Program-made: the position numbers and the translations under genes
The notes under the pieces: model-generated
The model's database searches: none
Told to the model about the DNA's origin: nothing
Seen by the model: only the letters and a program-made list of their open reading frames with translations
Shown here: positions 163 to 24,336 of the stretch, one piece after another
Position numbering within the stretch: position 1 is the first letter of the stretch
How the letters are laid out: each line of letters begins with the position of its first letter
Source: a virus
IMG/VR virus record: IMGVR_UViG_3300031867_000025
Coordinates: 70,150-94,485 of that record
Length of the DNA stretch: 24,336 nt
Reading direction: 5' to 3' (one strand)

Positions 163-1503
163 ATGGCTTTAGCACATCAAAGTATATCGACTATTAGTTC
201 TCCAGAATTTATTAATCTTTCTCCCCTTGACATAAATCCTTTAATGTCATCCTGTGAGATTAAGGTTTTTTATCTTGGGGAGAACCGTAATGGAAGTTAT
301 ATTTCTAAAGATGTTGCTGCGGAAATGGCTAAAACATTACGTGGAGCGCCGATAGTTGGATATTATAAAGAAGAAAAAGAAGATTTTACAGATCATGGTA
401 ATCAAATGATTTTTGATGATACTGGAATTCATTTTAATTGTTTGACTAAACCTTATGGTTTTGTGTCTCCTGACGCAAAGGTTTGGTTTAAAGATTTTGA
501 TGATATTGATGAATTTGGTAATGCTGTCACAAGAACATATTTAATGACAACAGGATATTTATGGACAGGACAGTTTTATGAAGTTCAATCAGTTTTTAAA
601 GATAATGGAAAGTCTCATTCTATGGAATTGGATGAAAAAACTTTAGATGGACATTGGGCAAAAAATGAAAAAAAAGATTTAGAATTTTTTATTATAAATG
701 ACGCAATATTTTCTAAACTATGCATTTTAGGTGATGATGTAGAACCTTGTTTTGAGGGATCAGGAATAACCTCGCCGCAAGTTAGTGCATCATTTACTTT
801 AGACAACAATTTCAAACACACTCTGTTTGAAATGATGCAACAATTAACAGAGGCTTTAAAGGGAGGTAATGAAGTGGCTAATGTAAATGAAAATATTAAA
901 GATTCTACAGTAGTTACGACTGATTTTTCAGAATAGGACAAAAAGGATAAAGAAAAAGTTTTTGAAAATGAATTAAAATAGGATTCTTCAAAGGATAATG
1001 CTTCTACTTCTTTTGCTAATAAAGAAGATGAGAAGAAAGAAGACGAAAAAGAGAATAAAGAAGAAGGCAGTAGTGGTACTGAGAATGATGATAAAAAAGA
1101 AAATGATGAAGATAAGAAGAAATATAGTTTGTTAGAAGAACAGTATAATGAATTAAAAGATAAATACGCTCTTCTTGAACAAGAATGCAATGAACTGAAA
1201 GAATTTAAACAAAAAGTTGAAAATGATCAAAAGGATGAACTGATCGCACAATTTTCAATGCTTTCAGATGAAGACAAGAAAGATGTTATTGAAAATAAGG
1301 CTTCTTATTCTCTTGATGAAATTAAATCTAAATTGGCTGTTATATGTTTTGAAAAGAAGGTCAATTTTAATTTAAATGATACAGTCGAAAATGAAGAAGA
1401 TAAGAATGAAAAAGTTGTGACTACTTTTAATATGAATATACAGAGTGACCTCAGTGTACCAGATTGGGTAAAAGAGGTTGAAAACACAATGAATAATATT
1501 TAA
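163..1503 (+). CDS. scaffolding protein (446 aa): N-terminal globular domain, possibly a protease-scaffold fusion, plus acidic coiled-coil C-terminal region; 2 in-frame TAG read as sense
   Basis: RBS AAGGAGGaataatATG. Track ORFs 163..936 and 1129..1503 are in the same frame, separated only by TAG codons (934-936, 979-981). The C-terminal half is a K/E/D-rich heptad-like sequence (…EEQYNELKDKYALLEQECNELKEFKQKVEND…) typical of phage scaffolds. It lies immediately upstream of the capsid genes and ends in TAA. Confidence 0.6.
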
Positions 1504-1521
1504 TAGGAGGATTGTGAAGAT

Positions 1522-2169
1522 ATGAAACGTAAGGGATATGCACAAGTAGAACCTAATCATCTTTCTGCACAATATACCGGTCAAATTTATGCACAATTAC
1601 CTGCATTAAAGGCTGACGGCAAGCCAATTGAACAGCTTGAAAATGGCCAGTTTTTAAAGTATAATTATGCGGCAGGTAGAGCAAGTGTTGCTGGTAGTGG
1701 AGAATGGATGCTTGTTTATAATGAAGAAAAATTATATGATGAAAGACGTCAGAATCATAAGGACTTTGTTATGAAGGCTGAAGATATGACGGACGGAAAG
1801 ATTTATCCTAGATTATTAAAGACTAATGTAGGAGATATCTATACTACAAATGCTTTTAAAAATAGTGGTTCAGATGCTGCTACTAAACCAACTGTAGAAG
1901 GCCCGGATCAATCAATTGAAATGGCGGATCTTTCTATTGGTGATTATCTAGTAATTGGAAATGATGGATGGTTAACAAAAGCTTCTGGTGAAGGTATGCC
2001 GGCAGATGCTGTTGTTTTCCAGGTTGTACCTCATTTTACTCAGCTTAATGATGATGGTAGCGTGGACCCTTCTTATGAAGCGAAACCCGTTGGTAGTGAA
2101 ACTGTGAATGTATATAACTATACTCTTGCAGATATGCAGGATGCTGTAAAAATACAACGTGTGAAATAA
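1522..2169 (+). CDS. head protein, possibly decoration/auxiliary capsid protein (215 aa), no TAG
   Basis: Uninterrupted ORF with RBS TAGGAGGattgtgaagatATG, TAA stop, positioned between scaffold and major capsid genes. Function is inferred from position only. Confidence 0.6.
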   Translation: MKRKGYAQVEPNHLSAQYTGQIYAQLPALKADGKPIEQLENGQFLKYNYAAGRASVAGSGEWMLVYNEEKLYDERRQNHKDFVMKAEDMTDGKIYPRLLKTNVGDIYTTNAFKNSGSDAATKPTVEGPDQSIEMADLSIGDYLVIGNDGWLTKASGEGMPADAVVFQVVPHFTQLNDDGSVDPSYEAKPVGSETVNVYNYTLADMQDAVKIQRVK

Positions 2170-2191
2170 TTAATGATAGGAGGATAACGTA

Positions 2192-3256: not shown

Positions 3257-3275
3257 GGTTAATAATTAACATATT

Positions 3276-3338: not shown

Positions 3339-3902
3339 ATGGATAAAAATACACCAATAAAAGTTTTAAATAGAGATAACGGCGCGGTAGTTTATTCTAT
3401 TCCAGAGATGAATGGGTTAACAAGAATTTTTCAGGCGGGAGAAACTAAAGAGGTAACTTATGAAGAGTTACAAAAATTATCTTATATTCCCGGTGGAAGT
3501 GAATTATTAAGAGATAGCTTAGTAATTTTAGATAATTCAACAACAGTTGAAAATTTAATTGGTCACGTAGAGCCTGAGTATTATTATACAAAAGATGATA
3601 TTATTAATTTAATGAAAACAGGTTCTTTAGATGCTTTTTTAGATTGTTTAGATTTTGCTCCAGAGGGAGTAAAGGATTTAATCAAAACTTTAGCAGTAGA
3701 CTTACCGTTAAATGATGTATCTAAACGAGAAGCAATCCTTGATAAATTAGGCTTTAATGTTGATAATGCTATTAGAATTAAAAATGAATCTACTGAACCT
3801 CAAGAGGAAGAACATGTTGCTAAGCGAAGAGTTCAAAAGGAAGAGACTAAGCCTGCGGAAACAATTACCCGTCGCCGCACCGTTGTGAAAAAAGAGAGTT
3901 AA
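3339..3902 (+). CDS. hypothetical structural protein (187 aa), no TAG, charged C-terminal tail
   Basis: Uninterrupted ORF with RBS AAAAGGAGtttaaaaaATG and TAA stop. Confidence 0.65.
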   Translation: MDKNTPIKVLNRDNGAVVYSIPEMNGLTRIFQAGETKEVTYEELQKLSYIPGGSELLRDSLVILDNSTTVENLIGHVEPEYYYTKDDIINLMKTGSLDAFLDCLDFAPEGVKDLIKTLAVDLPLNDVSKREAILDKLGFNVDNAIRIKNESTEPQEEEHVAKRRVQKEETKPAETITRRRTVVKKES

Positions 3903-3921: not shown

Positions 3922-4455
3922 ATGGAAGATATAAAATATACGCCCTTTTCTGAAGTATATGATAGTTTTCTTTCAAAGATAACTGATGATATGTATATGG
4001 AATTAACCGAGGAAGATACGTTTAAAATTTTACAATAGTTGTTATTTTCTGCTATTGGTAAATTTGAATTTCCTCGACAAAGTTTAGATTATTAGTTTAA
4101 ATAGCCGTAGTAGGGAGAAACGTAGGGAGAGTGGATTTTTATCAATCTTTTAACTCAAGAAGAAATAAATATCTTAGCTACCTATATGATTGTAGAATGG
4201 TTAGGACAGCAATTAGCTTCAATAGAGAATGTAAGAATGAAGTATAGTGGGGCTGATTTTAAGTTTACGAGTCAAGCGAATCACATTCAGAAAGTTTTAC
4301 AATTAAAAAAGGATTATGAGCGAGAAGCTTTTCATTTACAGCGTTTATATAAAAGACGTTTGAAAAATAGTTAGGGTATTTATAAATCTACTTTTGGTAC
4401 TATTATGGAAAATCAGCCGTAGGGAGGTACTGGAACATGGAAGAATTGGTTTTAA
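3922..4455 (+). CDS. putative head-tail adaptor/connector protein (177 aa) with 8 in-frame TAG codons
   Basis: RBS AAAGGGGAGGtgtattATG. A single frame runs from ATG 3922 to TAA 4453-4455, broken only by TAG at 4036, 4093, 4102, 4108, 4111, 4123, 4372 and 4420. Track ORF 4186..4374 is its C-terminal fragment. The connector call rests on position after the capsid genes and an approximate resemblance to gp6/gp15-like adaptors, and is low confidence. Confidence 0.5.
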
Positions 4456-4763
4456 GTACTGGAATGGCTGTAGATATAGAAGCTATACATTTAAGTATAA
4501 AAAAAATAATTAATCAAGTTTATAAATTATTACCTATGAGAGAAGAAGGTAAGGACTGGCAAAAGTTACTTGAGACGTTAATAGAGTAGATATCGGGAAT
4601 GAAAAGATTGATAAAAGATCAGGACCGTCTTTTCTTTCTGTTGTTATGTAAATTGGAAGGATTATTCAGTTTAGATTCAGAAGATAAAATGAGTTTATTT
4701 CGTAGAGTTATTTTTGAAAGTTTGAATTTACTGAATAATTTAGATAAAAATGTCTGCGATTGA
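4437..4763 (+). CDS. hypothetical neck protein (108 aa; head-closure-like size), 1 in-frame TAG, TGA stop
   Basis: ATG 4437 is preceded by GGGAGGtactggaac. The frame is open to TGA 4761-4763 and overlaps the next gene start (ATG 4750). Confidence 0.5.
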
Positions 4764-6057
4764 TACTTTAAAGAATCGAGTTAGAATTAATAGTGATAAT
4801 TTTTATACTCATTCCACTGCGGGATCTGCTTTAGCTACAGTAGCGAAAAGATTACAGGTGCGCGGGGGACCTGATCAATGGGTACGAATGCGGGAAGATA
4901 AATTACGTAGTTTAAAGAAAGCATTACTTTATTCTTACCAAAGTGCCGTTGTACAAAGGTATGACGTTAAAAAGAATAGTAAGGCTAATAATATTATTCA
5001 ATTAATTACTAGGTTACAAGATGTAATTGAATTAAATGATAATGAAAAAGAGTTTTTAACTGATCTTGAGCGGGAGCATATGATAGAATTAGAACGTGGA
5101 AGTTCTGAATATATAGATAGATTGAAATAGATTGTTGATGAATTAACGAATTCTTCTCCGTTATTTAGATGCTTAATCAATCATGATAAATTAAAGGTTG
5201 ATTATGAAGATAAAATTATTTCTATTCCTTTTTAGTAGATACCTTTAGGATCTACAGAAATAGCACAAACAGAATTTCATAATGGAACTGTTTTTAAATG
5301 GGTACATGGGAATAAGGAAGAGTGGACTCCAGACACATACTGGATTGTATATATGCAATATTCAGAGGAAACGGCTTATTTTAGAGCTGAGATAAGAAAA
5401 GCCGATGAATAGATTGAGATTGTAACGATAGATGCGGAAGGTAACGAATCTACTGTAACTTATCGCGGATGGATGACTGGACCGAATGAGACGACCGCTC
5501 TGTGGAATACTAAAAAAGATGTTACTTGGAATGATATGAATTATACTAAGTTGCTTTATATTACGAAAGATTAGGATACGTTGGCCTTTTTTCAACGTTT
5601 TGATAGAATTATCATTAATGGAAAACCTTGGGAAGTACAAGCATATAATGAAAATTATAGCACAAATAAAAGCGGCGAGGTAGATTCAGGGATTATTCGA
5701 GTAGCACTGAAAGAAACTTATACTGGGTCTACACAATTTATAAAGTAGAGAATGGATGAAGCGGACGCCGCCAAAGAAAAACAGACCTAGTATGATGAAC
5801 AACATACCGATCCCCGCATAGATGGACCAATTAAAGTTAAACCCTATTCTATTCTTACTTTTGTTGCTAAGAATTTTGAAGAGCAAGGCAGTTGGAGCAT
5901 ATCTAATACGAAAATTGCAAAAATTAAAACTATATCTGAAGATACTAAAACTGCTACGGTATAGATTTTAACAGGGTTTTCTAATAAAGAGGGATTTTAT
6001 ATAAATTATGGAAACAATGATGATACAAAAATTCACGTTATAATAGAATCATTTTAA
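4750..6057 (+). CDS. neck/tail structural protein (435 aa) with 8 in-frame TAG; C-terminal region looks beta-rich (possibly Ig-like)
   Basis: Track ORF 4750..5130 continues in the same frame through TAG-only interruptions to TAA 6055-6057. The readthrough segments encode coherent protein sequence (…TVTYRGWMTGPNETTALWNTKKDVTWNDMNYTKLLYITKD…). Confidence 0.5.
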
Positions 6058-6071: not shown

Positions 6072-6725
6072 ATGAGAAAGGATTTAATTTTAAATAAGCC
6101 GATATATTCTTCTTTTTTCTCTTGTGGACCCGATATTCAAATGATTTTAAAAACTTTATTTGTATCAAGTCGTCCTTATAGTGATATTTTAAAACGTTTA
6201 TTAATTATAAATAATAAAGATTGTTTAAAATCAATGGATGATGATATTGAATAGGTTTATAAGAAAACAGTTAATAGTTTTTCGTTAGGAGATTTAATTG
6301 ATAAAGGATATGTTAGATTAAATTCAAAGATTTCTCGTGGCACTCATGAATAGATTAAATCTTATATCTTAATTTCTTTAGATAATTTTTCTCCAGATGG
6401 AACAAGTACAGAATATAGAGATTCTATTATAAATTTTGATATAGTATGTTATAATGATGCTTGGGTTTTAAATGACTATAAAATACGTCCATTAATGATT
6501 GCGGGTTATATAGATGGTATTTTAAATAGTTTAACTCAGAATAATAAATACTTAGCAACAGGGTCCTTAAAATCACAAATTAAATTGTCTGGCATTGGTG
6601 AATATCAGTTTTTAGGTTGTAATTATCATGTATTAAATGAAGATTTAGCCATGTATACGTTATCGTATTATGGTAAACATTTTTCAGAGGATGTTCAAAA
6701 GATTGGAACGGTGACTAATGATTGA
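6072..6725 (+). CDS. hypothetical tail/neck protein (217 aa), 2 in-frame TAG, TGA stop
   Basis: RBS TTAAGGAGGgaaaagattATG. Track ORFs 6072..6254 and 6495..6725 share a frame and are joined through TAG codons only. The TGA stop overlaps the start of the next gene. Confidence 0.5.
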
Positions 6726-7476
6726 TTACCTTTTATTATTGTCTAAAAATGATATTCCATTCATTGAAGCGAAAGTTGTTGTACATCAACCTACTATAAG
6801 AGAAATTGCTTTTATTGGTTAGGAAAAATTTTTTTTAGGATGTTAGGTTATTAATTTTTCAAAAAAGAATTTGATGATATAGGACAAAACGCAAATAGAA
6901 CAATTAAGTGATTTTGAAATATTAATGGCAATAATAAACAATAAAGAAGGCGGAGCTAATATCAAGAAAAATAAAAAATGCCTTTAGTTGATTTTATTAT
7001 TACTATTTCCTGATTTTACTATTAATTTTTTGCCTACGAGTATTATGCTTACAAAAGATAAGTAGAGGCATTTAATAGACAGAGACAACTTTTAGAGTTT
7101 TAAAAATATCGTTAATGAGATGTTTTGTTTATCTAACGTTTTAAAAGACGGGGCTAGTAAGTATAATCCTGGTGGTCCGCAAGCGCAAGCATTAGTTTAG
7201 AAATTTAAAAAGCGTCAAAAGAAACTTGCATAGTTAAAAAATAGAAGTCAAGAACAAAAAATTGAAATATTATCTCGCTATATATCTATATTAAGTGTTG
7301 GAGAACAGAAGGATATGAATATATTATTAAACTATACTGTTTTTCAATTATTTGATGAATTTAATCGTTTTAAATTACGAGAAGATTTTAATATGTATGT
7401 AAAATGTAAATTAGCGGGAGCTAAAGATTTAGAAGATGTTAAAAACTGGATGGATAATTTGCGTTCAGAAGATTAA
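6718..7476 (+). CDS. hypothetical tail protein (252 aa; tail terminator/completion candidate by position), 8 in-frame TAG
   Basis: ATG 6718 overlaps the upstream stop. The frame is open to TAA 7474-7476 with only TAG interruptions, and readthrough yields coherent sequence (…NMYVKCKLAGAKDLEDVKNWMDNLRSED). Confidence 0.45.
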
Positions 7477-7502: not shown

Positions 7503-8588
7503 ATGAAATTTGGTGTAAGATAGTGTGCAAACATTGTTTTTCGTGCAAAACAGAAGACTGTGATTGGAACATCTACTTTTAATGTAGGTCAACCAGTTCT
7601 TTATATTGATACAGCCACTACTTCCTCTATGGAACAGGCGAGTACTTCAGTATACGCACAAGGCGGACGCGGTAATGCTCGTTTACTTGCATGGGAAGGT
7701 GATAAGACATTAACATTTACTGTTACTGATGCTCTTATTTCTCCTGTTTCGTTAAGTATGTTATCAGGGGCAGGATTAATTAAAACAACTGGAGATTGGG
7801 TTCATGTGCATGCAACAACTGCTGCAACGATGACTCTTACTGGTACTGGTAACGGAGCTGTTGGACAAATTGATTTAACAGATGCATTAGCTGAATTTGG
7901 TGCAATTAATAGTTCTAAGACTGGTGATACTCAATCAGCTGGCAATGGCGGTATTTATGTGGATGCTGGTACAGATGCGCCACTGTTTATAATTGAAACA
8001 GAAGACGATGGTTCTATTACTGGTAGTATCATTACTTCTAATGCCACTGGTGGTATTACATATGAAGTTGAAATGGATACTGTTGATAATACAAAAGTAA
8101 AACGTGCTTATTTAAATATTCCACAGCCTAAAGAAAATAATACTACTGCTTTAACTGAATCAGATGGTAGTATTAATGTATTAGTAGATTATTATGTAGT
8201 TAAGAAATCTGATCAAGTATCTGAAATTCAGCTTACTCCTCAAGATTTTGCAGGATATTATTATGTAGAAGCTGATACTTTATTTAGATCTCAAGCAACT
8301 GGTATTGATATGCCTGCTAACTTAACATTCCCGAATGTTAAGATTCAGTCTGGATTTACTATTAGTATGGCTGGTACTGGTGATCCTAGTACATTTGACT
8401 TTACTATGGATGCGTTCCCAGGATATACTTATTTTGATAAGACTAAACAGGTGCTTTGCGTAATTCAGGTTGTTGAAGATAGTTTAGCTGCAACTTCTGA
8501 AGGACATAGCGTGATGCTTAAGAATACTGGTATTGAACATCCAGATATTTTTGATGATAGCGATTTAGTAGATCCAACAACAATCTAA
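7503..8588 (+). CDS. major tail (tube) protein (361 aa), single TAG at codon 7
   Basis: Strong RBS TAAGGAGGataattcttATG. Track ORF 7560..8588 starts at an internal GTG. The real ATG at 7503 is in the same frame and is separated from it by one TAG (7521-7523). The protein is Thr/Gly/Ser-rich and beta-rich, and the gene is followed by a strong terminator. Together with its position before the chaperone and tape-measure genes this supports a major tail protein. Confidence 0.65.
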
Positions 8589-9989: not shown

Positions 9990-10508
9990 ATGAAATATTC
10001 AGATTTAAATTTATCTATTAATAACGATACAGTTACTACACAAACTCCTTTCGGAGATATTGAAGTGCGGAAGTATCTTCCAGTTGAAGATAAAATTGAT
10101 CTTATTGAAATTGCTCTTCAAAAATCAGAAGAAAACGGTATTTATAATGAAATGAAGTTAGCAATGTATTTTAATCTATATATAATTTATATGTATACTG
10201 ATCTTGAATTTACAGATGAAGAAAAGGCGGATGAATATAAATTATATAACGAGTTAGAAAGTAATAATATTATTATCTCTGTGTTAGGTGCGCTTGATGA
10301 ATATGAGGAATTATTCCATTATTTGAACATTATGAAAGATATTAAAATGAAATATAAGACAAGTGCGGCCGCCATGGTGCAAACATTCATCCAGGATATG
10401 CCACGTAATGCCGCTGCAATGTCTGAGATAGTAGATAATTTCGATAAAGAAAAATATAAAGAAGTTGTTGAGTTTGCTAAATACGCTAATGGCGGAAGAC
10501 CTATTTAA
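9990..10508 (+). CDS. tail assembly chaperone (gpG-like; 172 aa), no TAG
   Basis: Uninterrupted acidic ORF immediately upstream of the tape-measure gene. Size, charge and position match phage tail assembly chaperones. TAA stop. Confidence 0.55.
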   Translation: MKYSDLNLSINNDTVTTQTPFGDIEVRKYLPVEDKIDLIEIALQKSEENGIYNEMKLAMYFNLYIIYMYTDLEFTDEEKADEYKLYNELESNNIIISVLGALDEYEELFHYLNIMKDIKMKYKTSAAAMVQTFIQDMPRNAAAMSEIVDNFDKEKYKEVVEFAKYANGGRPI

Positions 10509-13600: not shown

Positions 13601-16600
13601 CTGGACAGGATAGACTCCAGAAGAAAATTTTTCATCTTATCTTACAACTATTAGACAAAATTTGACAGATCCTAATTTATATAGTTTTTATGACAATATT
13701 GATGGGATGCAAAAAACATTATTTGATACCCATGGAGTTGCTGTTCCTAAAATACAAGCCATTTTGGATAATTTTGAACAAGAACTCGCTGAAGCAGAAA
13801 ATATTTAGGATTTGGTTGCGGCTGCTTAGCCGTTATATGGAATTGCTACAAAAATAGATAATTTTAAATATGATGAAGAAAATGGTGATCAGCAGAGAAA
13901 AGACGAAGCTGCCGTTACAGAACAATTAAGAACTAATGTTCAAAGTCTGATATCAGCTGTTTAGCGTTTGAATAGTCAATATGTTGAAGCAAAATAGGAA
14001 GTAGAATAGTATACTAAAATTGATACTGGATATGTATTTCAAGGATTAAGATTATCTAAAGAATATAGTTCTTTTAAAAAGCAGGCTGGAGATAAATTAT
14101 GGAATAACGGCTTATAGGAAATTTTAGATGGTATTATTACAACCTTAGCTGAAGAAGCAGAAAGATCGGAAGACACTCCTACTGGAGATGCAGCAATAGA
14201 ACAAGGTCAAGAATATCTAGCTAATTTATTAACCATATTTGACCCTAAAGTAATTAATTAGGCAATGTAGAATCAACAAAAAACTATAGATAATATTATT
14301 GAACAAAATGGAAAAATTTCTGTAGGAAAATTGATTCAACAAACTAAACAAACTGCTACTTCTTTATATGAAAGTTTAATTAATGAATAGTCTACTTAGT
14401 AGCAAAAAGAAGCCGTTACTAAATTATTAAATATGTTATTTGGCTTTGATATGACAACAGGCACCTCAGAGTTAGAAAATAAAGTTAATGATTTTGTAAA
14501 AACCGCAACCGATTTAGTAACAGAAAAGGCTAAAGAAAAAGGAATTGATTACACCCCAACTCAATAGGAAACACAAGCTTTTACTTCTTTTGCAAAATCT
14601 TTGCCAGAAGCAGAGTTAGATATGAAATTAACTAATATTGATGACATGATAGCAGATAATATTTTATCTCTTACAAATTTAGTTAATGCTTATAAAATGG
14701 CAGGTAATGAAATTTCTAATTTTGGTAATGCAATAGATTTTAGTTGGGATAATCAAATAAAATTGTCAACTGCTTTAGGAAAAGCTAAAAGTTATAGTAA
14801 TATTGAAGGAGCTAATGATTTTTTAAGTTATTTGGAAGCTAATAATCCTAAATTAAAAGAGTTGGCTTCTAAATAGGGTGGGCGTTATGGAGAACTTTAT
14901 GTTCAAGAATATAATCGAATTATAAAACAAAATAAAGAAAAAGAAATTAAAGAAACAGAGACAAGAATAAATACCCTTTAGAAAAGATTAAATACATATA
15001 AAGATAAGGGAGTAAGCTCAGAGAGTGAAAAAGTTAAGAATGCTACAACAGAATTAGGCTCTTTACAAACTCAATTAATTTAGCAACAGAGTGATTTAGC
15101 GAGATTGACAGAAGAGACAAACTAGTCATTAGATGAACAAAATGAAAAACTTGAAAAGCAAGTTTCTTTATTAAAGAATTTTAAACAAAATAATGAAACT
15201 AATAATAATGCATTAAGTGCATATGATAAATTAAAATCAGACTCAGGCTCAAAACTAACTGATAAAGAAAGTGCTGCTATAGCAGATTTAACATCAAGGT
15301 ATATAGAATTAGCTTAGGCTTAGAAAAAATATGGTGTTGGAACCATATAGTATATGTATGTTTTAGAAGATGTTTTAAAATTAGAGCGGGAAAGAGTTAG
15401 TGCTTTACAAGCGCAGTCAGCAGAAAAATTAACGGCTTTGTCAGAAATAGATGAATAGGATTTACAAAATAAAATAGATAAAGCAGATGCTATAATTGAA
15501 AATAATCAAAATAAATTAGTTTAGGTATAGAAGTAGTATAGTGCTGAAATTAGTCGGGCTTTGCAAGCAGGTCTTAATGGAGAGCAAATACAAACTATAA
15601 CTGATAAATATAGCACAAAAATTAAAGAAATTTCTGATAATATTGATAAATTTACATAGAAAAAAGCTAAATGGCAAGAAACTATGGATCTTTTAAAAGA
15701 AAATCCATAGGCGGCCGCGGATGCAATGTAGGCTTTAGGTATGACTGTTGATGGTTTAGATGAAAAATATGTTAATTTATCTGATAAACTTAATGGATTA
15801 AACGGGTTTTATGAAAAATTATCTGAAGGCGCGCAATTAAGTAAAGAAGAGCTTCTTGATTTTAGCGATTTATTAGATTCTATCCAATAGCAATATGACG
15901 GTTTAGATAATACAATAGAAACTCTTAGAAAAACATGGATGTCTGGAACAGAATAGTATTCAATAGCACTATAGGAACTTCAGTCAAAATTAACTAGCTT
16001 ATCTCTTCAATAGGCATATGATAAGTTGACTTATGATGCTAATGAAGTTGAACATATCTTTATTCAAGTAGATGATGAAGCTTTTCAATCATGGAAAGAA
16101 GATGTTGAACGATTTTTTGAAGATGATAAAACTATGTCTGTTAGAGTAGATAATGCATTAGATCAAGAAATTAATAAAATTAAAAAGGATTTTGATGAAA
16201 TATATAGTGCAGCTAGTAAGATAGGAGAAGGCTTTAAAGTTTCTGCATCTGATATTGGTGAAATTACTAAAGTATTTCCATAGATTACAGAAGGCATGGT
16301 TCGTTTTGCAGACGGGTCTTATCAATTAAATCAGCAAGTGGTCCAACAAGCTATTTCCGCGGCGCAGGCAGAGGTTTCTGCAAATGGATAGGCTATTGCT
16401 GAAAAAATTAAACAATAGGCTGATTATCACAATGCTAAAGCAGACATATATGACCAAATAGCAGCTATTGCAGCTTAGATGGCTGAGAATTAGGTCATGA
16501 CCGAAGAAGACAAAAATTAGCGTATAGGTCAAATCAATGGTCTTTTGAGTCAACTGCAAGAATAGAATAAAGGAAAAGTTGTTGAGTATTAGAAAAAAGC

Positions 16601-19600
16601 TAGCGATGAAATAAAAGTAAAAGAATAGGATACTGCTACTCATAGACAATCTATAAATGCTAATATGTATAGAAGTCTTACTGAAATGAGTAATGCTAGA
16701 GCGCAACAAGATGTGGCAAATACGCAAGCAATGTTTGATGCAGATCAAGCGCGCGCTAATAATATGCGGCCTGCAGATTATGTTGCGGGAAATGGTTTAG
16801 ATGCATTTAATGGACGAGCTCCTATTCAAAGTAGTTATTCAGTTATTGATCCAGGGTCTACAGCTCAAGATACTTTTACTATTAACCCAGACTTTGGTAC
16901 ATATTCTACTCAAGATTGGCGAAATTTATAGAGTCAAGCAAGAGCGCGTGCAGAGCAAGAGAGACGCCTTGCAGAATTAGCTATGTCTAAATATTATGAT
17001 ATTATGGGCAGGGCTAATAAGACCATTTACGGACTTGGAAATGTGGGTCGTGGAGAAGGTATCGAAGGAGCTAAACCAGAAAAAGAAAAAGAAGAGAAAC
17101 CAAAAGAAGAAAAAGTTCAGGAGCCGCCAGATCCTAATATTGAAAAATATTTAAAGGATGAGTTTGATAGATATCATGATATTAATATTATTATTTAGAG
17201 AATAAATCGTCAATTAAAAAATATGTAGGCTCAACAAAAGAAACTTGTTGGTAAAGATTTAATTCATAATTATCAAAGACAATTAGAATTATTAAATTAG
17301 CAAATTGAAGCTCAAAAGCAAAAAATGAGTATTGCTCAACAAGAAGCGGGAGAGCTGCGGGCGAGTTTAAGCGCACAGGGGTTAGCGTTTCAAGAAAATG
17401 GATAGATCGCAAATTATCTTGGTGTATTATCAGCAAAACAAAATGCAATTAATGAATATATTGGTTTTTATAATTCTTTAACTAAAGAAGAACAAGAATA
17501 TGCCAAAGATGTTCTTGATTCTATGAAAGAACAATATGAGGACTTAAAGAAAGATATTGCTCGTTATGATGAAGTTGTTAATACTATGATTCCTGATTTA
17601 GCTGATCAGATACGTGAAGAAACTTAGAAAAAGGTTGAAATAGCTATTTCTAAGAGTAAAATGGCGGTTGATATAAAAATTGATATGTCTCAATTACAGC
17701 GTGATTATAATAAATTTTTGAAGAATATTAAGTATCAAATAAAAGATTGGGATATATTAGGTAGTACAAAGTATGCTTTTAAAGATTTACAATCTTATTT
17801 CCAAGATGGTATATATAATTCAACAAAAGCGCAAACTGATCACATTTATTTTCTTATAGATCAACTTCGTCAAATAAATCAATCAGGTTTTTCTGATGTA
17901 TATGGAGATAATAAAAAACAGGCATTAGACGATTTATAGCATTATAGACAAAGTCTTGAGGGAGATTTAGAAAGTATTCTAGGACTAATTGATCAAATTA
18001 AAGAAAATGTTATAAAGGCTATTGAACAAGTAGAAAAAGGTTTCCAAGATAGATAGAAATATTATAATCACGTTTCAAGTTTATTAGATCATGATTTGAA
18101 AGTTGTTGAATTAATTTATGGCAAACAGGCTTATGATAAAATGGATACTATGTATCAAAGACGTTTTGAACATGATGTAGATCATTTAAATAAGCTTGCG
18201 GAAGAAAAGGAATATTGGCGGGAACAGTTAGAAAAAGAAAAGGCACACCAAAAATTATTAAAGCAGGGAAGTAATGTTTGGCAAGAATCTCAGGAGCGGA
18301 TTAAAGAGTTTGAATAGAACTGGATGGATGCAACAGATAGACTGAACTCCGCGTTTGAAGCTTCTCTTGATAATGTTATTAATAAATATAAAAATGGTGT
18401 AGATCAAATTTTTGATAAGTATGAAAGATAGATGTTTGGTGGTCAAACTATTGATGAACTTATTGAAGATTGGGAATTAGCAAAAGAAGCAGCAAATATA
18501 TACTTAGATAATGTAAATAGAACTTATGCTATTGATAAGTTAAGTAATGGATATGATCAATTATTTGAGAAAGCTAATGGTAATCTTAAATTACAAAAGG
18601 AAATTAATGCTGCAAAAGAGGCTGAGGTTTAGAGTTTAAAGAAAATGGAAAAAATAGATCAAGGCACAATTGATGTTGCTAATAAAAAACTATAGGTACT
18701 TCAAGCCCAAATTGCTTTAGAAGATTCTCGTAATAATAGGTCTACTTTACAATTAAGACGTGATTCTCAAGGTAATTATTCTTATCAATATGCGGCAGAT
18801 ATGGATGATGCTGAAGATAAATTACAAAAATATAAAGATGAAACAAATGAGCTTTATAATCTTGCTAAAAGGTTGCAAAATTAGTATGAAGAAAAAACTA
18901 TGTAGGCAACAAAGAGAATGATTGATAAAGTTAAGGAACTTCGTTATGAAGCTTATTTATTTGACATAGACACATCCGCAAGAGAATAGGAGATCGTGAA
19001 AACTTATTTAGGTAATATATAGGCTTATGCAGGAATTTCAGAGCAACATAAAGTAGATACAGCCAAATAGGCTCTTGCTACAATTACAGATAATGACCCT
19101 AATTATAGCTATCGAAGAGTATTTGATCCTCAATCAGGTAAATTATCTACATATTATGGTTATGGATAGACAACGGTTAAAGAATGGGCTAAACATAATG
19201 AAGAAACTATAACTAAAATGATGCAAAATTTGGAAGCGGGCCCATACGCAGCCAATAAAAAAGCTTTTTATGATATGATTTATAATAATGGTAATGGTAT
19301 GGTTCCAATGTGGAGTAGTGGAGTTTCTAAGTATATTGAAAGAATTAATAGTGGTCCAGATGGATTACGTCCTGTTATGAGATAGGCTATAAAAGAATTA
19401 AATGGGCTACTTGTTAGTTATAAAAAAGAATTTATTGAATTAGCTAGTTCCGCAAAGAAAGATACTAAAACTATAGGAACTGGATTAAATGATGATATTA
19501 AATTAACTAAAGAACTTGTTACAGATAATGAAAAATTATTAGATTCTTATCAAGATATTTTTAATGATATGATGAATCACTGGATTCCTACTTTAGAAAA

Positions 19601-20459
19601 ATATATTAAAAAGCATGAAGAATTACAAGCTGCGATTGAGGCTGTTACTAAAGCTTATAAGATTCAACAAGAAGAACAAAGGCGGGCGGCAGAAGCTGCT
19701 ACCCAAGTAGCTGGATCTGCGGCGGTTTCTATAGGAGACACTTCTTTATTTGATGGAACTTATAATCAGGTACATCCTGATGTAAGCTATAGCAGCCACA
19801 GCAGTAGTCGTAGACGAAATACTGTCGTGATAGATCCTGGTGCTTATGGAGGCGGGGGCGGTTTTGGAATAGGCTCTACGGTAAGGTTTTTATCAGGTCG
19901 ATATACAGCAAATTCTTCTGGAGGAGGTACATCTGGAGATGCTTCTTTAGGAAGCTATGTAACAATAACTCTTACTAATCCTGGAGCTCCTCGTCCTTAT
20001 CATATCTCAGGATCAGATTATTGGGGAAATTATTCTGATTTAGGATGGGTTTCTGAAGATCAATTAGGTTATAGATCAGGAGGTTACACTGGAGAATGGG
20101 GGTCTTCTGATGGAAGATGGGCATTACTTCATCAAAAAGAACTTGTATTAAATGCTCAAGATACTTAGAATATGTTAGAAGCGGTAAGGACTGTCCGTGA
20201 CTTAACTGCTGAAATGCAAGCTAATTATAGACAACGTTTATTACAATATCAACTTATGCAAGAATAGATGAGTGCATTACAATCAAAAATGCTTTTTGAT
20301 ATGAATAGTTTCTTATTTACTGATAGAGAACAAACTCCAGTTCAACAAAATGTTTATATTACGGCAGATTTCCCAGCAGCTCAATATCATAGAGAAATTG
20401 AATTAGCATTTGAAAATCTTACAAATCGTGCTTCTCAGTATTTATTTACTAGTAGATAA
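10620..20459 (+). CDS. tail tape measure protein, giant (3279 codons), with roughly 100 in-frame TAG codons read as sense
   Basis: RBS AAAAAGGAGGaataggtATG. All 14 track ORFs from 11007 to 20459 are in frame 0, and the segments checked in between contain only TAG interruptions, never TAA or TGA. The N-terminal region carries the conserved tape-measure core (…GKTVKYGIASSVFNNIKNSLQQAFYFAKDLDLSLTNIRIVTGDSADQMERFSKTAN…LDYTNAALTFYQQGLG…MADYLTAVWNGY…). The remainder is a long alpha-helical K/E/Q-rich region with a Gly-rich C-terminal domain. The gene ends at TAA 20457-20459. Confidence 0.85.
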
Positions 20460-20506: not shown

Positions 20507-23500
20507 ATGAGTGATATAACTCAAAATTTATTAGATACAATATCAATGATAGCAGCCCATGCTGTATCTAATGCTTAGTTTGATAGAACAATACAGGCGG
20601 TAATTGTATCTTGTGAAGATTAGGCGTTAGGAAAATATAAAGTTAAATATCAAGATTCTTTATGGATGGCTTATAATAATAATTCTACTACAAAATATAG
20701 CGCAGGAACTAGCGTATATGTGCTTGTGCCTGGAAATAATATGTCAAAAAATAAAACAATTATAGGTACAGTTAGTGCATTAGGAGAAAATTACATTAAT
20801 TATATTAGTAATGAATAGAATTATATTGAAAATGGAAATAGTATTGTAGAAATGTCAGAAGAAACAGAATATGGATTATGTTCTTATGAAATAGAAGATA
20901 GTAAAACTTTAATAGGAGAAGAAGGTTTTATACTAAATACCGATGCGGCTAATGAATATTTAAGTACGTCTGAATATATATTATTAAAAGCTGATTTCCG
21001 CACTAATCTTGCAAAAGAGCAACGTCGCGCAGGTAACTATGGTTTAAAAGCAAGATTGATATTTAAAACACAAGAAGATCCAAACAAAACATATGGAATG
21101 GATTACGTATTAGATATAGATAATATGGTTGGTAATCCATATTTATTATCTGCTCCACTAACTCAAAAAGCATATTTTCCTATTGATGGAGCAAATTTTG
21201 TTAGAGTTGAATCAATTAGTATTTTTAGTGAGGGATTTATTAACCATATAGCAAATAAATCTGATGACATTTTCGTTTCTGGTATAGAAATAATAGGCGC
21301 AAATACTTTAACAGAATAGGAAAAACAAGGTATTTCTTTACGTTTTAAACGTCCAAAAGGATATATTTTTACTTCAGCCGATAATTCTTAGGCTATAAAA
21401 ACAGTAATTGCACAGATTAGAGTGGCAAATAAATTATTAACGTCTACTGAAAATGTAGAATATTATTGGTTTAAACAAAATATAACTGTTGAGGCGGGTA
21501 GTCAACGTTATAGTAAAGCTGGTGGAAAAGGTTGGGAATGTTTAAATTAGTTGAATACATCATAGGCAACAGATATTAAATTTTTACCTGGAATAGATAC
21601 ATTTACAATTAAAAAAGCGGATGCTATAGCGGAACATACTAAATTTAAATGTGTTGTTGTTTATGATGGAAAAGAAATTTCTAATACTTTTGAAATAATA
21701 AATAAAGATTCTCAGTATATTATTGAAATAATTTGTGATCAGTAGCCAGTCTTTTATCCAAATGTAGATACTTTACATTTAACTTGTTTAGTTAAAAATC
21801 GTTAGGATGGGTCTGAAACAACAGGGGTAGCATATAATTGGAGATTAATAACTTAGCATAATACTTATTATTCATTAAGTGAAACTACTAACGTTTTAAC
21901 TATACAATCTGATAGTATACGTAATTATAATGATTATTATTGTTCAATATATAATTCAGGAACTTTAATTGGAACGGCAACTTTAAGAGTAACAAAAAAT
22001 GCAGAACCATAGAATAGATATATTCTTTCTTTAGTAAATGGAACACAAGTATTTAATTATGATGAAATGGGACATAGTCCTTATGATATATATCGTCAAG
22101 CGGGAAGAACTATCCCGCAGCTTAGCTTTACTGTTGCGGATGTTGTAACCGGAGCAGATGTAACAAATTAGGTTAAAGATATCATATGGACAATTCCATT
22201 AAAAAATACTTTATTGACTGATGAAAATCAAGCAGAAGGACAAATGAGTGAAAACGGAGAATATAAAGAATATACTAATTTACAAGATTTTACGTATGGT
22301 ATTGATAGTAGATATTATCATAATTTTACTAATAATGAAATTAAATTAAAAGTAATTATTCATGGGATAGAATTGTATGCAAAAACTAATTTTACATTTA
22401 CAAAAGAAGGAGATCCTGGTACTAATGGAACTGATATAATTTGTAAAATTGTAGCATCAAAAGATGATAATATTGTTCCTGGTTGGCTAATTGCGGATTA
22501 TAAAAGAGGAACATATAATTGGGATAATATGATTGTTTAGTTGTGGCGGAATGGATAGAGAATTTTTGGAAGCAGAACAAGTCGCGCCAAAGCTAATAAT
22601 TAGCCAGAAATTAAAGTTACTTGGGAATTTTTAAGTAATACGGATAAAACATTGTGGTTTAAGATCCCAGAAGGCGCCTCTACTATTACAGATCATCAAG
22701 ATGCAACAGAAAATAAGGTAGTGCTTTTTAATGATAAGACATTGTCTATGAATTCATTAAATTGGACTGAGGTAGATGGTTACCCCGCCAATATACTAAA
22801 AGTGACAGTGTAGTATGATCAAAATAGAAAGTATTATGATACTCGTCCTATTGTTACCGTATTTGAAGAATCTTCTACCAGTAATGAAGTTACTTTAGAA
22901 TCTTATTCCGGTTTTTAGTATGCAGTATATTCGGAAGATGGTGAAAATCCATTATATGATGATTTAAATCCTTTTACTATTGTACAATCTGCGAGTAGTC
23001 GATAGAATGTAACATGGTCAGTTATAGGATCTGTAAGATCTGGATATGAGAAATTTGCAGCTATTTCCGCATCTAATTTTGAAATAGACAGATTTAAAAA
23101 TAGTCAAAATAATATTACAGATAGTAATGGAGATAAAATGTATTTTAGACCTAAGCCTACTTATGATGGGTTATGTGTTACAAATGCTATTTTGGCTAAA
23201 GGTTCTCATTTTTGGTTGCATATTCCTATACATTTAATGTATAACAGATATGGGCATAAACAGTTAAATGATTGGGATGGAAATTCAATTGTAATGAATG
23301 ATAAAGAAGGATAGGATCATTATATTTTAACTCCTCAAATTGGAGCTGGTATGAAAAATTCAGAGGACAACACTTTTACTGGATTAATGATGGGTACAAC
23401 TAAGGTGATTACTGGCGATCCGGATGGTTATACTATATAGACTGGATTGCTTGGGTATAATAATGGAGAAAGAACAATATTTTTAGATGCTAAGACTGGT

Positions 23501-24336
23501 AAAGCTGAATTTGGAAGAGCAGATACTGGAAGAATTATTATTGACCCTTCTCAACAAAAAGAAGGAAAACCTCAAGCTTTAATATATGGAGGTGTTTATA
23601 GAGAAAAGGGTATTGACGATGATTAGGGGTCTGGTATGATCATTAATTTAACCAAACCTTCTATTGAATTTGGCTCTAAAAAATTTACTGTAGATGAACA
23701 AGCATTTACAGTTGGTGAAGATAAAATTATTTACGACATGGATAAAAACAAATTATCTTTAAAATTAGATGAATTTTCTTTAGGAGGTAAAGACTTATAG
23801 GAAATAGTTGATGAAGCTGATAATTTTTTATTAGATGCGAAAGGATTATCTAGTACCTATTGGACAATAGTTGGTACTTTAGAAGATAATCAAGATGATC
23901 CATTTGGAAAAAAAGGAGCTTGTTTGTTATCTCCTGAATCTGGAAAAAGCGCATATATACAAGCAAAAAAAGATAATAATAATCCTTTTAAAGAATTAGG
24001 TAGACGTTATCAGCTATCTGTATGGTTAAAAACATCAACATCAAATAATTCTAATAATTCAATAGATATTTATTTTAATGGAGTGGCACATACTGTAACT
24101 CCAACAAATATTTGGAAACAATATAGTTTTGAACAATAGGTAACTACTTTAAATACTAGTTATCCCAATGATCTTGTAACAATTGGTGGACAATCTTCTT
24201 TTTCATCTTCTGATGGATATAATTTATATATATATAATCCTTATGTATCTTTTGTAGAAACTCAATTAGAAATTTTTAATAGATTAACAAATGATGGAGC
24301 TGCTCAAGGTATACAATTAAAGAATGGGTAGCTATA
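20507..24336 (+). CDS. very large tail-tip / receptor-binding protein (distal-tail/tail-fibre-like; at least 1276 codons, 3' partial), 24 in-frame TAG
   Basis: ATG 20507 with RBS AAGGAGGtttaatatATG. Track ORFs 20852.., 22214.. and 23924.. are all in frame 2. Codon-by-codon checks of the joins show TAG only. The C-terminal visible part (…YQLSVWLKTSTSNNSNNSIDIYFNGVAHTVTPTNIWKQYSFEQ…) resembles a beta-sandwich carbohydrate-binding module. The frame continues beyond the window end. Confidence 0.6.

What the first reader, a model, noticed from the sequence alone, without database searches (positions are those of the whole stretch)
163..24336. TAG is a sense codon throughout this phage structural module (probably Gln; translation table 15-like)
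Seen directly: across about 24 kb, long reading frames are broken only by TAG. The tape-measure gene alone has roughly 100 in-frame TAGs in 9.8 kb without a single frame change. TAA or TGA terminates every gene (TAA for the scaffold, capsid, major tail, chaperone and tape-measure genes; TGA at 4761 and 6723). Reading through TAG restores conserved protein sequence: the tape-measure core motif, the connector protein and the scaffold. Random decay would leave mixed TAA/TGA/TAG stops (TAA dominating in AT-rich DNA) together with indels. TGG is used for Trp and TGA terminates, so this is not a TGA reassignment. Consequence: standard-code annotation, including the supplied ORF track, fragments or misses the essential genes.
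Basis: partly seen in the sequence, partly recalled or inferred. Interest (0 to 1): 0.9.

Follow-up and report, generated by a model that had tools for sequence, protein, structure and literature searches.

The report
Phage reads TAG as glutamate
This rumen-type phage does use the stop codon TAG as an amino-acid codon in its virion genes. Comparison with relatives shows it stands for glutamate, not the glutamine assumed for such phages, which I could not find described for phages.

Summary
The 14 contiguous + strand genes (163-24336) hold 7,869 codons with 144 in-frame TAG and no in-frame TAA or TGA. All 13 complete genes end in TAA or TGA. PHROG profiles match straight across the TAGs. The tape-measure gene has 85 TAGs, not about 100.

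Against 50 standard-code relatives, TAG positions of this window and its lineage align with Glu (window: 18 Glu-majority sites against 3 Gln). Other TAG-recoded lineages of the same phage family, including published Phass-1, give Gln with the same method, and TGA-recoded relatives give Trp.

In the terminase alignment, the Glu-type lineage puts TAG in 92 of 280 cells of conserved Glu columns and in 0 of 154 cells of conserved Gln columns. The Gln-type lineages do the reverse (1 of 220; 37 of 121).

TAG is concentrated in late genes and absent from the most abundant virion proteins. The decoding tRNA was not found in about 90 kb surveyed across several related contigs, so the mechanism is inferred only. 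Recoding itself is known. TAG to Glu appears undescribed in the papers I could search. A public protein database translates these TAGs as Gln.

The parts
163..1503 (+). g1, 446 aa, 2 in-frame TAG, stop TAA. N-terminal domain plus a long acidic, coiled-coil-like tail. The scaffold or protease role is plausible but was not tested.
   Evidence: RBS AAGGAGG before the ATG. phrog_3313 E=1e-45. Pfam YonD_N is on record for the identical gene on the source contig.
1522..2169 (+). g2, 215 aa, no TAG, stop TAA
2192..3256 (+). g3, capsid-like protein (YonB family), 354 aa, no TAG, stop TAA. This gene was used as the marker to collect relatives.
   Evidence: phrog_4088 E=4e-57. Pfam YonB on record. 389 relatives in IMG/VR. 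The fold was not verified.
3339..3902 (+). g4, 187 aa, no TAG, stop TAA
3922..4455 (+). g5, 177 aa, 8 TAG, stop TAA
   Evidence: The phrog_3853 match spans six TAGs. TAG at residues 39 and 58 aligns with a Glu majority.
4437..4763 (+). g6, 108 aa, 1 TAG, stop TGA. The TAG at residue 51 sits in a Glu column (26 of 28 standard-code relatives).
4750..6057 (+). g7, 435 aa, 8 TAG, stop TAA
   Evidence: TAG at residues 275 and 405 aligns with a Glu majority.
6072..6725 (+). g8, 217 aa (YomW family), 2 TAG, stop TGA
   Evidence: TAG at residue 94 aligns with Glu in 21 of 25 relatives.
6718..7476 (+). g9, 252 aa (YomV family), 8 TAG, stop TAA. The TAG at residue 35 lies in an invariant Glu column (24 of 24).
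   Evidence: The phrog_4051 match spans all eight TAGs..
7503..8588 (+). g10, tail tube protein (YomU_Tube), 361 aa, 1 TAG at codon 7 in an invariant Glu column (21 of 21), stop TAA
   Evidence: phrog_2729 E=7e-50. Pfam on record..
8764..9936 (+). g11, 390 aa, 5 TAG, stop TAA. No family match. The start is taken from the gene call on the source contig.
9990..10508 (+). g12, 172 aa, no TAG, stop TAA. It lies just before the tape measure, the usual place of a tail assembly chaperone. The role was not tested.
   Evidence: phrog_30570.
10620..20459 (+). g13, tape measure protein, 3,279 aa, 85 in-frame TAG, no TAA or TGA, stop TAA
   Evidence: PHROG tape-measure families, E down to 3e-65. PF10145 on record. 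TAG at residue 278 lies in an invariant Glu column (19 of 19). Residue 313 lies in a Gln-majority column, the one clear exception.
20507..24336 (+). g14, tail fibre or host-recognition protein, open at the window end, 24 TAG in 1,276 codons
   Evidence: Homologues of 1,300-2,100 aa. The closest (64% identical) carries a C-terminal Peptidase_S74 domain. Among 22 aligned TAG sites, Glu is the majority at 6 and Gln at 1.

Best explanation
The window is the virion-gene module (head, tail tube, tape measure, fibre) of a large SPbeta-like tailed phage, with a genome of roughly 130-145 kb, from a ruminant or gut community. In its late genes TAG is a sense codon that stands for glutamate. TAA and TGA remain the stops.

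Shown: TAG is read through. TAG positions behave in evolution like Glu codons. They occupy invariant Glu columns, including a strictly conserved EE pair of the terminase. They exchange with GAA and GAG among close relatives. The sum Glu+TAG restores the Glu content of standard-code orthologues. TAG is abundant in late genes, rare in early and replication genes, and avoided in the most abundant virion proteins.

Inferred, not shown: decoding needs a tRNA with anticodon CUA that carries Glu. The simplest source is a copy of the phage's own tRNA-Glu(CUC) with C36 changed to A, a single mutation. The likely hosts are Bacillota, most of which lack GlnRS. There a non-discriminating GluRS, which already accepts both C36 and G36, could charge such a tRNA. 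GatCAB would leave it as Glu-tRNA because the tRNA body is of Glu type (G1-C72, extra D-loop base). A CUA tRNA with a Gln-type body would be amidated to Gln. That would explain why sister lineages read TAG as Gln. As proposed for other recoded phages, confining TAG to late genes would tie their translation to the appearance of the suppressor.
For: The read-through statistics are.

Glu assignment:
- The residue profile at TAG sites matches the profile of the window's own Glu codons, not its Gln codons.
- Site majorities are E 18-20 against Q 3.
- Codon exchange with close relatives is GAA+GAG 228 against CAA+CAG 31.
- Composition: window E 7.3% plus TAG 1.2% equals 8.5%, against 8.7% Glu in standard-code orthologues. 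Gln is 3.5% against 3.8%.

Controls from the same pipeline:
- TGA in TGA-recoded relatives aligns with Trp in 72 of about 100 cells.
- 16 other TAG-recoded loci, including Phass-1, give Gln. About 30 loci of the window's clade give Glu.
- On the capsid-protein tree the Glu-type and Gln-type phages fall in different clades.

Terminase alignment of 67 sequences:
- Glu-type phages have TAG in 92 of 280 cells of conserved Glu columns and 0 of 154 cells of conserved Gln columns.
- Gln-type phages have 1 of 220 and 37 of 121 (Fisher 7e-21 and 1e-17).
- In the motif GGKEQAA, the Glu-type recodes the E and the Gln-type recodes the Q.

Late-gene bias: TAG occurs at 22-23 per kb in the late module and 8-9 per kb in the early region. 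There is no TAG in the 1,327 codons of DNA polymerase III alpha.

Probably Glu-type relatives (reached through an early-gene link; TAG exchanges mainly with GAA/GAG, a weak test) carry tRNA-Glu(CUC) and tRNA-Glu(UUC) of ordinary Glu type. The GatCAB discrimination rule (U1-A72 and the D-loop) is from PMC2811023. Related contigs sit mostly in Bacillota genome bins.
Against: No tRNA with anticodon CUA was found in about 90 kb surveyed across several related contigs. This composite covers the first 17 or so tRNAs of their array, which lies on contigs reached only through an early-gene link, not on the window's own contig. The array runs off the fetched loci and about 50 kb of the genome was not read.

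A scan of IMG/VR for a canonical bacterial tRNA-Glu anticodon arm carrying CUA found no tRNA.

GluRS normally uses the anticodon as an identity element. Classical CUA suppressors tend to accept Gln.

Host assignment rests on metagenome binning, which is visibly noisy: some contigs sit in Prevotella or Methanobrevibacter bins.

A few TAG sites sit in Gln-majority columns (g13 residue 313, g9 residue 55). One TAG in the terminase of the source contig aligns with a conserved Leu/Ile.

Comparative data show what selection treats TAG as. They do not show what the ribosome inserts, so a Glu/Gln mixture is not excluded.
Confidence: 0.8

Rival explanations
1. TAG is read as glutamine (genetic code 15), as in crAss-like, Lak and Phass-1 phages. 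The Glu signal only reflects TAGs that arose from GAG at positions where Glu to Gln is tolerated.
For: This is the only TAG reassignment reported for phages in the papers found. CUA suppressors are classically charged by GlnRS. The Lak paper explains occasional Glu alignments in exactly this way. Three window TAG sites lie in Gln-majority columns.
Against: Synonymous CAA/CAG to TAG exchange should then dominate, as it does in the 16 Gln-type loci. Here it is 31 against 228. TAG never occupies a conserved Gln column of the terminase (0 of 154 cells). It fills a third of the cells in conserved Glu columns, including invariant ones. The Gln content of the proteins is already normal without TAG.
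Confidence: 0.08
2. Ambiguous decoding: the suppressor tRNA is charged with Glu and only partly amidated, or two suppressors coexist. TAG then yields a Glu/Gln mixture, and selection places TAG where Glu is required or either residue is tolerated.
For: Phass-1 carries three CUA tRNAs with different bodies, one Trp-like and one with a long insertion, so mixed decoding is conceivable in this family. A minority of TAG sites align with Gln. L029 gives a mixed signal, E 13 and Q 8.
Against: TAG at invariant, probably catalytic Glu positions of the terminase would then give a fraction of dead enzyme. The complete absence of TAG from conserved Gln columns argues that Gln is not delivered efficiently.
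Confidence: 0.1
3. A decaying prophage or an assembly artefact: the TAGs are genuine nonsense mutations or errors, and the genes are dead.
For: Under the standard code the genes are fragmented.
Against: There is no in-frame TAA or TGA in 7,869 codons and no frame changes. Every gene has a strong ribosome-binding site. The same pattern appears in dozens of independent assemblies from different studies. TAG positions are conserved or exchange with Glu codons.
Confidence: 0.01
4. The host itself uses a code with TAG as a sense codon, and the phage simply follows it.
For: Some recoded phages do follow their host, for example code 25 and code 4 phages. The host is unknown.
Against: TAG is concentrated in late genes. 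It is nearly absent from early and replication genes and from the most abundant virion proteins. Close relatives in the same clade use the standard code. The papers I searched describe no bacterial code with TAG as Glu.
Confidence: 0.03

Closest known systems
TAG-to-Gln recoded phages (genetic code 15): crAss-like, Lak, Phass-1 and relatives
   Same: In-frame TAG occurs in essential genes, mostly late ones. TAA and TGA are the stops. Coding density is restored when TAG is read as sense. Standard-code annotation fails. Phass-1 belongs to the same broad family (capsid-like protein 51% identical) and shares the NrdG-NrdD gene neighbourhood.
   Different: The inferred amino acid is Glu, not Gln. 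Phass-1 and 15 other TAG-recoded loci tested here (16 Gln-type in all) give Gln with the same method. Phass-1 has three CUA tRNAs. None has been found yet in the Glu-type lineage.
Agate phages of Borges et al. (about 127-154 kb, animal guts, predicted Firmicutes hosts, mixed codes within one clade)
   Same: So does the coexistence of standard, TGA-recoded and TAG-recoded members at short evolutionary distance.
   Different: Membership could not be tested because no Agate sequence was available. That paper states that only TAG to Gln and TGA to Trp were seen.
Peritrich ciliate nuclear code (NCBI table 30: TAA and TAG to Glu)
   Same: TAG is read as Glu (from my own knowledge of the NCBI tables).
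   Different: That code is eukaryotic, genome-wide, and reassigns TAA as well. Here TAA is the main stop codon, and the recoding is phage-specific and biased to late genes.
Classical amber suppressor tRNAs (such as supE) and the indirect Gln-tRNA pathway (non-discriminating GluRS plus GatCAB)
   Same: Decoding of UAG by a tRNA with anticodon CUA that differs from a sense tRNA by one anticodon base. GatCAB decides between Glu and Gln from the first base pair and the D-loop of the tRNA.
   Different: No such tRNA has been seen for this lineage. Its existence, its Glu-type body and its charging are all inferences.
Bacillus phage SPbeta structural module
   Same: The Pfam families on record for the source contig are the SPbeta ones (YonD_N, YonB, YomW, YomV, YomU tube). 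There is a very long tape measure. Staphylococcus SPbeta-like phages are weak capsid hits.
   Different: Sequence identity is low. SPbeta uses the standard code (from my own knowledge).

Membership tests
Stop-codon-recoded (alternatively coded) phages | In-frame copies of one stop codon in conserved phage genes, with the other two stop codons absent in frame | tested here: met
   144 TAG, 0 TAA and 0 TGA in 7,869 codons.
Stop-codon-recoded (alternatively coded) phages | A large gain in coding density when the codon is read as sense | tested here: met
   Coverage rises from 0.35 to 0.97. Reading TGA as sense gives 0.38.
Stop-codon-recoded (alternatively coded) phages | Read-through restores full-length homology to known families | tested here: met
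   PHROG profiles are matched end to end across the TAGs. Full-length alignments to standard-code relatives.
Stop-codon-recoded (alternatively coded) phages | Recoded codon enriched in late (structural and lysis) genes | tested here: met
   22-23 TAG per kb in the late module against 8-9 per kb in the early region of related contigs. Replication genes are almost free of TAG.
Stop-codon-recoded (alternatively coded) phages | Phage-encoded suppressor tRNA and/or RF2 (present in only a third to a half of reported cases) | tested here: inconclusive
   No CUA tRNA in the window, the source contig or about 90 kb surveyed across related contigs. The tRNA array was only partly read. No RF2 gene appears among the called genes of the fetched loci; about 50 kb per genome is unread.
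Genetic code 15 (TAG to Gln) | TAG positions align with Gln in standard-code homologues | tested here: not met
   Glu 18-20 sites against Gln 3. TAG in 0 of 154 cells of conserved Gln columns of the terminase. Positive controls give Gln.
Code with TAG to Glu (only the TAG half of NCBI table 30) | TAG positions align with Glu, and TAG exchanges with GAA and GAG | tested here: met
Code with TAG to Glu (only the TAG half of NCBI table 30) | TAA also reassigned to Glu, as in table 30 | tested here: not met
   TAA ends 11 of the 13 complete genes and never occurs in frame.
Code with TAG to Glu (only the TAG half of NCBI table 30) | Glu physically inserted at UAG | not testable with these tools
   This needs mass spectrometry of virion proteins or an in vitro charging assay.
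SPbeta-like tailed phage structural module | Capsid, tube and tape-measure families of SPbeta, in the same order | tested here: met
   YonD_N, YonB, YomW, YomV_2nd, YomU_Tube and PhageMin_Tail are on record for the identical genes. PHROG tape-measure hits. The local Pfam copy lacks these new families. The capsid fold was not verified.
Agate clade (Borges et al.) | Placement in the terminase tree of that study | not tested
   No reference sequences were available. The resemblance rests on size, habitat and mixed codes only.

The most novel reading that the evidence does not exclude
A genetic code apparently not reported for phages: UAG stands for glutamate, with UAA and UGA as the stops. It is used in late genes by one clade of about 130-145 kb gut and rumen phages. 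Sister clades of the same family read UAG as Gln or UGA as Trp, or keep the standard code. The amino acid would be set by the body of the suppressor tRNA (Glu-type or Gln-type) in hosts that make Gln-tRNA indirectly. Current pipelines, which apply table 15, put Gln where these proteins have Glu at about 2% of their residues (144 of 7,869 codons), including invariant and possibly catalytic Glu positions.
Probability: 0.6. Interest if true: 0.85.

Novelty: new variant of a known kind. Interest (0 to 1): 0.8.

Why it matters
Stop-codon recoding in phages is established, but the field treats TAG as Gln by default. Prodigal-gv, Pharokka-gv, NCBI's 'code 15 clade' and the protein database searched here all do so, and the database wrote Q at every TAG checked.

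If one clade reads TAG as Glu, its proteins are mistranslated in public databases at about 2% of positions in this window (144 of 7,869 codons). These include invariant acidic residues that may be catalytic. That affects structure prediction, family building and metaproteomic searches, because the two residues differ by 0.98 Da.

There is also a natural experiment here. Within one phage family, the same codon has been captured for two different amino acids and a second stop codon for a third, with standard-code relatives in between. That makes the question of what decides the meaning of a captured stop codon directly testable. The candidates are the tRNA body, the host's GluRS/GatCAB or GlnRS system, or something else.

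Tried and rejected
1. Hunt for the decoding tRNA.
- ARAGORN on the window, the source contig and about 150 related loci found nothing within 10 kb of the capsid gene. Rfam found nothing either.
- Walking and jumping used all eight IMG/VR scans. The fibre gene and the tape-measure C-terminus found no close relatives, because the tail region is mosaic.
- A jump from the Phass-1 NAMPT gene reached only Phass-like contigs.
- A canonical tRNA-Glu anticodon arm carrying CUA gave 11 chance hits and no tRNA.
- Walking left from the terminase found a lone tRNA-Lys(UUU).
- Protein searches followed by contig look-ups finally reached a conserved tRNA array in probably Glu-type relatives. Its first 17 or so genes hold no CUA anticodon, and the array runs off the loci.

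PDB sequence searches for g3 and g10 found nothing.

3. The local Pfam copy gave no hit for g1-g10. The relevant families exist only as precomputed hits.

4. Classifying the fibre-region and replication-region loci as Glu-type or Gln-type from NrdD, NrdG and dUTPase failed, because those genes hold too few TAGs.

5. Near-cognate read-through by host tRNAs without a dedicated suppressor was considered. I rejected it as the main route: as far as I know, near-cognate decoding of UAG gives mainly Gln, Tyr, Lys and Trp, not Glu. TAG also makes up 25% of the Glu-type codons (GAA+GAG+TAG) in a 3,279-aa protein.

Full report
**1. The observation**

The window has 31% G+C. Under the standard code its + strand holds only short ORFs. 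With TAG read as sense it resolves into 14 adjacent genes (g1-g14) running from 163 to the window end. Almost every gene is preceded by an AGGAGG-type ribosome-binding site. ORFs of at least 150 aa cover the following fractions of the window:

| Reading | Coverage |
|---|---|
| Standard code | 0.35 |
| TAG as sense | 0.97 |
| TGA as sense | 0.38 |
| TAA as sense | 0.59 |

Across the 7,869 codons of these genes there are 144 in-frame TAG and no in-frame TAA or TGA. In the two off frames TAA plus TGA occupy 8.9% of codons, so the chance of the observed absence is about 10^-319. The longest run free of TAA and TGA is 3,284 codons, against at most 218 in 200 shuffles.

The tape-measure gene (10620-20459, 3,279 aa) has 85 TAGs rather than about 100.

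PHROG profiles are matched end to end across the TAGs. Examples are g5, g9, the tail tube protein g10 and the N-terminal 700 residues of the tape measure.

**2. What the module is**

The exact capsid-like protein g3 occurs on one public contig, ENA ERZ27256863 k141_3825295 (28,580 bp). That contig adds a portal-like gene and a terminase gene upstream of the window. The Pfam families precomputed for its genes are those of Bacillus phage SPbeta (YonD_N, YonB, YomW, YomV, YomU tube) plus PhageMin_Tail.

In GenBank phages the nearest complete genome is Phass-1 (capsid-like protein 51% identical). Next come 134-142 kb Enterococcus phages (38%) and SPbeta-like Staphylococcus phages (23%).

IMG/VR holds at least 389 contigs with a related capsid protein, many of 100-165 kb. 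Related contigs in genome bins come mostly from ruminant, rabbit and other gut samples. They sit mainly in Bacillota bins (Clostridia, Bacilli, Erysipelotrichaceae, Lachnospiraceae), with some obvious mis-binning.

**3. Three recodings in one family**

I classified each related locus by coding density. The same capsid family contains standard-code members (50 loci), TAG-recoded members (49), TGA-recoded members (22) and ambiguous ones. This agrees with what Borges et al. reported for their Agate clade. I could not test membership in that clade.

**4. Which amino acid**

I translated TAG as X. BLAST scores X the same against every residue, so this does not favour any amino acid. I then tabulated what aligns with it.

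- *Residue profile.* Against the 33 standard-code relatives of the first scan, window TAGs align with E 0.36, D 0.11, K 0.09, Q 0.08. The window's own Glu codons give E 0.53, D 0.11, K 0.06, Q 0.05. Its Gln codons give Q 0.43, E 0.12. The likelihood prefers Glu over Gln by about 300 log units. That figure is inflated because the relatives are not independent.
- *One vote per site.* In one search, which used standard-code plus TGA-recoded relatives, the TAG sites have a Glu majority at 20 sites and a Gln majority at 3. The window's own Glu codons give 135 against 9, and its Gln codons give 13 against 49. With the 50 standard-code loci, the window gives 18 Glu-majority and 3 Gln-majority sites.
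- *Highly conserved columns.* Four TAGs lie in invariant or nearly invariant Glu columns: g6 residue 51, g9 residue 35, g10 residue 7 and g13 residue 278. One lies in a Gln-majority column, g13 residue 313, where three relatives also have Glu.
- *Codon exchange.* Against close TAG-recoded relatives, window TAG pairs with GAA 182 times, GAG 46, CAA 27 and CAG 4. The reciprocal comparison gives the same picture.
- *Composition.* Window Glu 7.3% plus TAG 1.2% equals 8.5%, against 8.7% Glu in standard-code orthologues. Gln is already 3.5% against 3.8%.

**5. Controls**

The same pipeline assigns Trp to TGA in the TGA-recoded relatives (72 of about 100 cells).

Most importantly, it assigns Gln to 16 other TAG-recoded loci of the family. 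These include Phass-1, for which Gln was published. Examples are L113 with Q 51 against E 9 of 92 sites, and L116 with Q 31 against E 3.

It assigns Glu to every clearly classifiable locus of the window's clade. Examples are L090 with E 74 against Q 9 of 134 sites, and L006 with E 68 against Q 5 of 121.

On a neighbour-joining tree of the capsid protein, all Glu-type phages fall in one major clade, interleaved with standard-code members. All Gln-type phages fall elsewhere.

**6. The terminase**

I aligned 67 terminase large subunits: 42 not TAG-recoded, 14 Glu-type and 11 Gln-type. I then looked only at columns at least 90% conserved among the 42.

| Phage type | TAG in conserved Glu columns (20) | TAG in conserved Gln columns (11) | Fisher p |
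|---|---|---|---|
| Glu-type | 92 of 280 cells | 0 of 154 cells | 7e-21 |
| Gln-type | 1 of 220 cells | 37 of 121 cells | 1e-17 |

In the motif GGKEQAA, Glu-type phages write GGK-TAG-QAA and Gln-type phages write GGKE-TAG-AA. In the invariant GGLMEEC stretch, two Glu-type phages carry TAG at the second Glu. SFDREY becomes SFDR-TAG-Y in nine of them, and APINTEAY becomes APINT-TAG-AY in eleven.

The terminase of the window's own contig has 11 TAGs. Six lie in Glu-majority columns, one in a variable Gln-majority column, and one aligns with a conserved Leu/Ile, which I cannot explain.

I conclude that selection treats TAG as Glu in this lineage.

**7. Where TAG is used**

Within the window, TAG is absent from g2, the capsid-like g3, g4 and g12, and occurs once in the tube protein. 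It makes up 17-36% of the Glu-type codons (GAA+GAG+TAG) in g5, g7, g8, g9, g11, the tape measure and the fibre.

In related contigs TAG density is 22-23 per kb in the late module and 8-9 per kb in the early region. Replication genes are almost free of it: DNA polymerase III alpha has none in 1,327 codons and NrdD has 0-1.

This fits the published idea that recoding gates late-gene translation. It also suggests that UAG decoding is limiting, since the most abundant proteins avoid the codon. That last point is my inference.

**8. Mechanism: what was searched and what is inferred**

No tRNA lies in the window or on its contig. By walking and jumping I reconstructed a composite layout from several related contigs. 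Those carrying late genes classify as Glu-type; those carrying the tRNA array were reached through an early-gene link and classify as Glu-type only by a weak codon-exchange test.

- Small early genes and a lone tRNA-Lys(UUU) lie upstream of the terminase.
- The late module follows.
- Then come, on the opposite strand, RuvC, dUTPase, NrdG, an FNT-like membrane protein, NrdD, guanylate kinase, DNA polymerase III alpha and a helicase.
- Beyond the early genes lies a conserved tRNA array. It holds Ile-UAU, a Gln-like tRNA with an 8-nt anticodon loop, Gly x2, Lys x2, Thr, Glu-CUC, Asn, Asp, Leu-UAG, Glu-UUC, Met, a ROOL RNA, Leu x2-3, Phe, Tyr, Ile-GAU and more.

None of the 17 or so tRNAs seen has anticodon CUA. 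A canonical tRNA-Glu anticodon arm carrying CUA does not occur as a tRNA in IMG/VR.

The proposed mechanism is therefore an inference from established biochemistry:
- A Glu-type tRNA with anticodon CUA would decode UAG. One mutation of the phage's tRNA-Glu(CUC) would produce it.
- The non-discriminating GluRS of a host without GlnRS would charge it.
- GatCAB would ignore it, because GatCAB requires U1-A72 and a Gln-type D-loop (PMC2811023).

I give the mechanism about 0.4, against about 0.85 for the Glu assignment itself. By contrast, the three CUA tRNAs of Phass-1 have discriminator G73. One has an anticodon arm identical to the phage's tRNA-Trp apart from the middle anticodon base.

**9. Comparison with what is known**

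Stop-codon recoding in phages, its bias to late genes and mixed codes within one clade are all published. In the library I could search, every phage paper treats TAG as Gln. Borges et al. state that only TAG to Gln and TGA to Trp were observed. The Lak study noted occasional Glu alignments and read them as GAG-to-TAG substitutions under a Gln code.

I found no report of TAG as Glu in a phage or a bacterium. TAG as Glu is known to me only from the peritrich ciliate nuclear code, where TAA is reassigned too. The library is incomplete, so prior description elsewhere cannot be excluded.

The public protein database searched here wrote Q at all 49 TAG positions in the three fibre proteins checked.

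**10. Verdict**

- The finding is a new variant of a known kind. If mass spectrometry or the tRNA confirms Glu, it adds a phage genetic code and a tractable system for asking what fixes the meaning of a captured stop codon.

Noticed in passing
Related loci L030-L033, L036, L040, L050, L064-L067, L071, L103, L106, L120, L121, L125, L127, L136, L138, L142: Members of the same capsid family are TGA-recoded. TGA aligns with Trp in 72 of about 100 cells. Standard-code, TGA-recoded, TAG-as-Gln and TAG-as-Glu phages therefore coexist in one family.
   Followed up: partly
L027:2009-5842; also L011, L021 and L074 in the terminase alignment: In some relatives the terminase gene is split by inserted ORFs that look like homing endonucleases. 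One has a LAGLIDADG-like motif (LGFLYADGSV) and one is GIY-YIG-like (YIYKIEN...YIGLT). These inserts contain no TAG although the flanking terminase pieces hold 15-20.
   Followed up: no
L326:18066-18658 (ENA ERZ1756080 NODE_31222), inside the tRNA array: A full-length ROOL RNA (Rfam RF03087, 281 bits, E=4e-64) sits among the phage tRNA genes. The matching stretch lacks called genes in L324, L325, L329 and L336.
   Followed up: no
L324/L326:13601-13672, L325:13602-13673, L336:14074-14145: A conserved tRNA at the second position of the array has an 8-nucleotide anticodon loop (UUUUUGAC; ARAGORN reports the anticodon as 'tttg', Lys or Gln). Its body is Gln-like. In L328, ARAGORN instead calls a 75-nt 'tRNA-Ser(GGA)' at that position.
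   Followed up: no
L081-L083 (Phass-1, OQ749652.1: 62442-62532, 62536-62610, 105744-105820): The three CUA tRNAs of Phass-1 have different bodies. One is Gln-like with a long insertion in the variable region. One has an anticodon arm identical to the phage's tRNA-Trp(CCA) except for the middle anticodon base. One has U1-A72 and G73. The published assignment to Gln rests on one of them.
   Followed up: partly
L084:1524-1526 (terminase codon 336 on the source contig, upstream of the window): One in-frame TAG aligns with a conserved hydrophobic column (Leu 33, Ile 8, Met 1) just before the GVDVG motif. Glu does not fit there. It could be a TTG-to-TAG change, an assembly error or a local misalignment.
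   Followed up: no
window 4437-4455, 4750-4763, 6718-6725: Neighbouring genes overlap by 8-19 bases (g5/g6, g6/g7, g8/g9). The two genes that end in TGA (g6, g8) are both among these overlapping pairs.
   Followed up: no
window 4092-4125 (g5 residues 58-68): Five of the eight TAGs of g5 cluster within 11 codons (Y-TAG-FK-TAG-P-TAG-TAG-GET-TAG-G). This stretch is poorly conserved and gapped in relatives.
   Followed up: no
L324-L340, about 8.1-9.9 kb in each locus: Next to the tRNA array lies a TAG-rich gene of about 580 aa (8 TAGs in L326). It has CW_7 and metallo-beta-lactamase domains and hits to the anti-Pycsar Apyc1 family. A TAG-rich GH114 gene precedes it. These are recoded genes outside the virion module.
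   Followed up: no
L287:14079-14152, L304:4-77, L311:4261-4334: A single tRNA-Lys(UUU) gene stands alone among the small early genes, about 13 kb upstream of the terminase and far from the main tRNA array.
   Followed up: no
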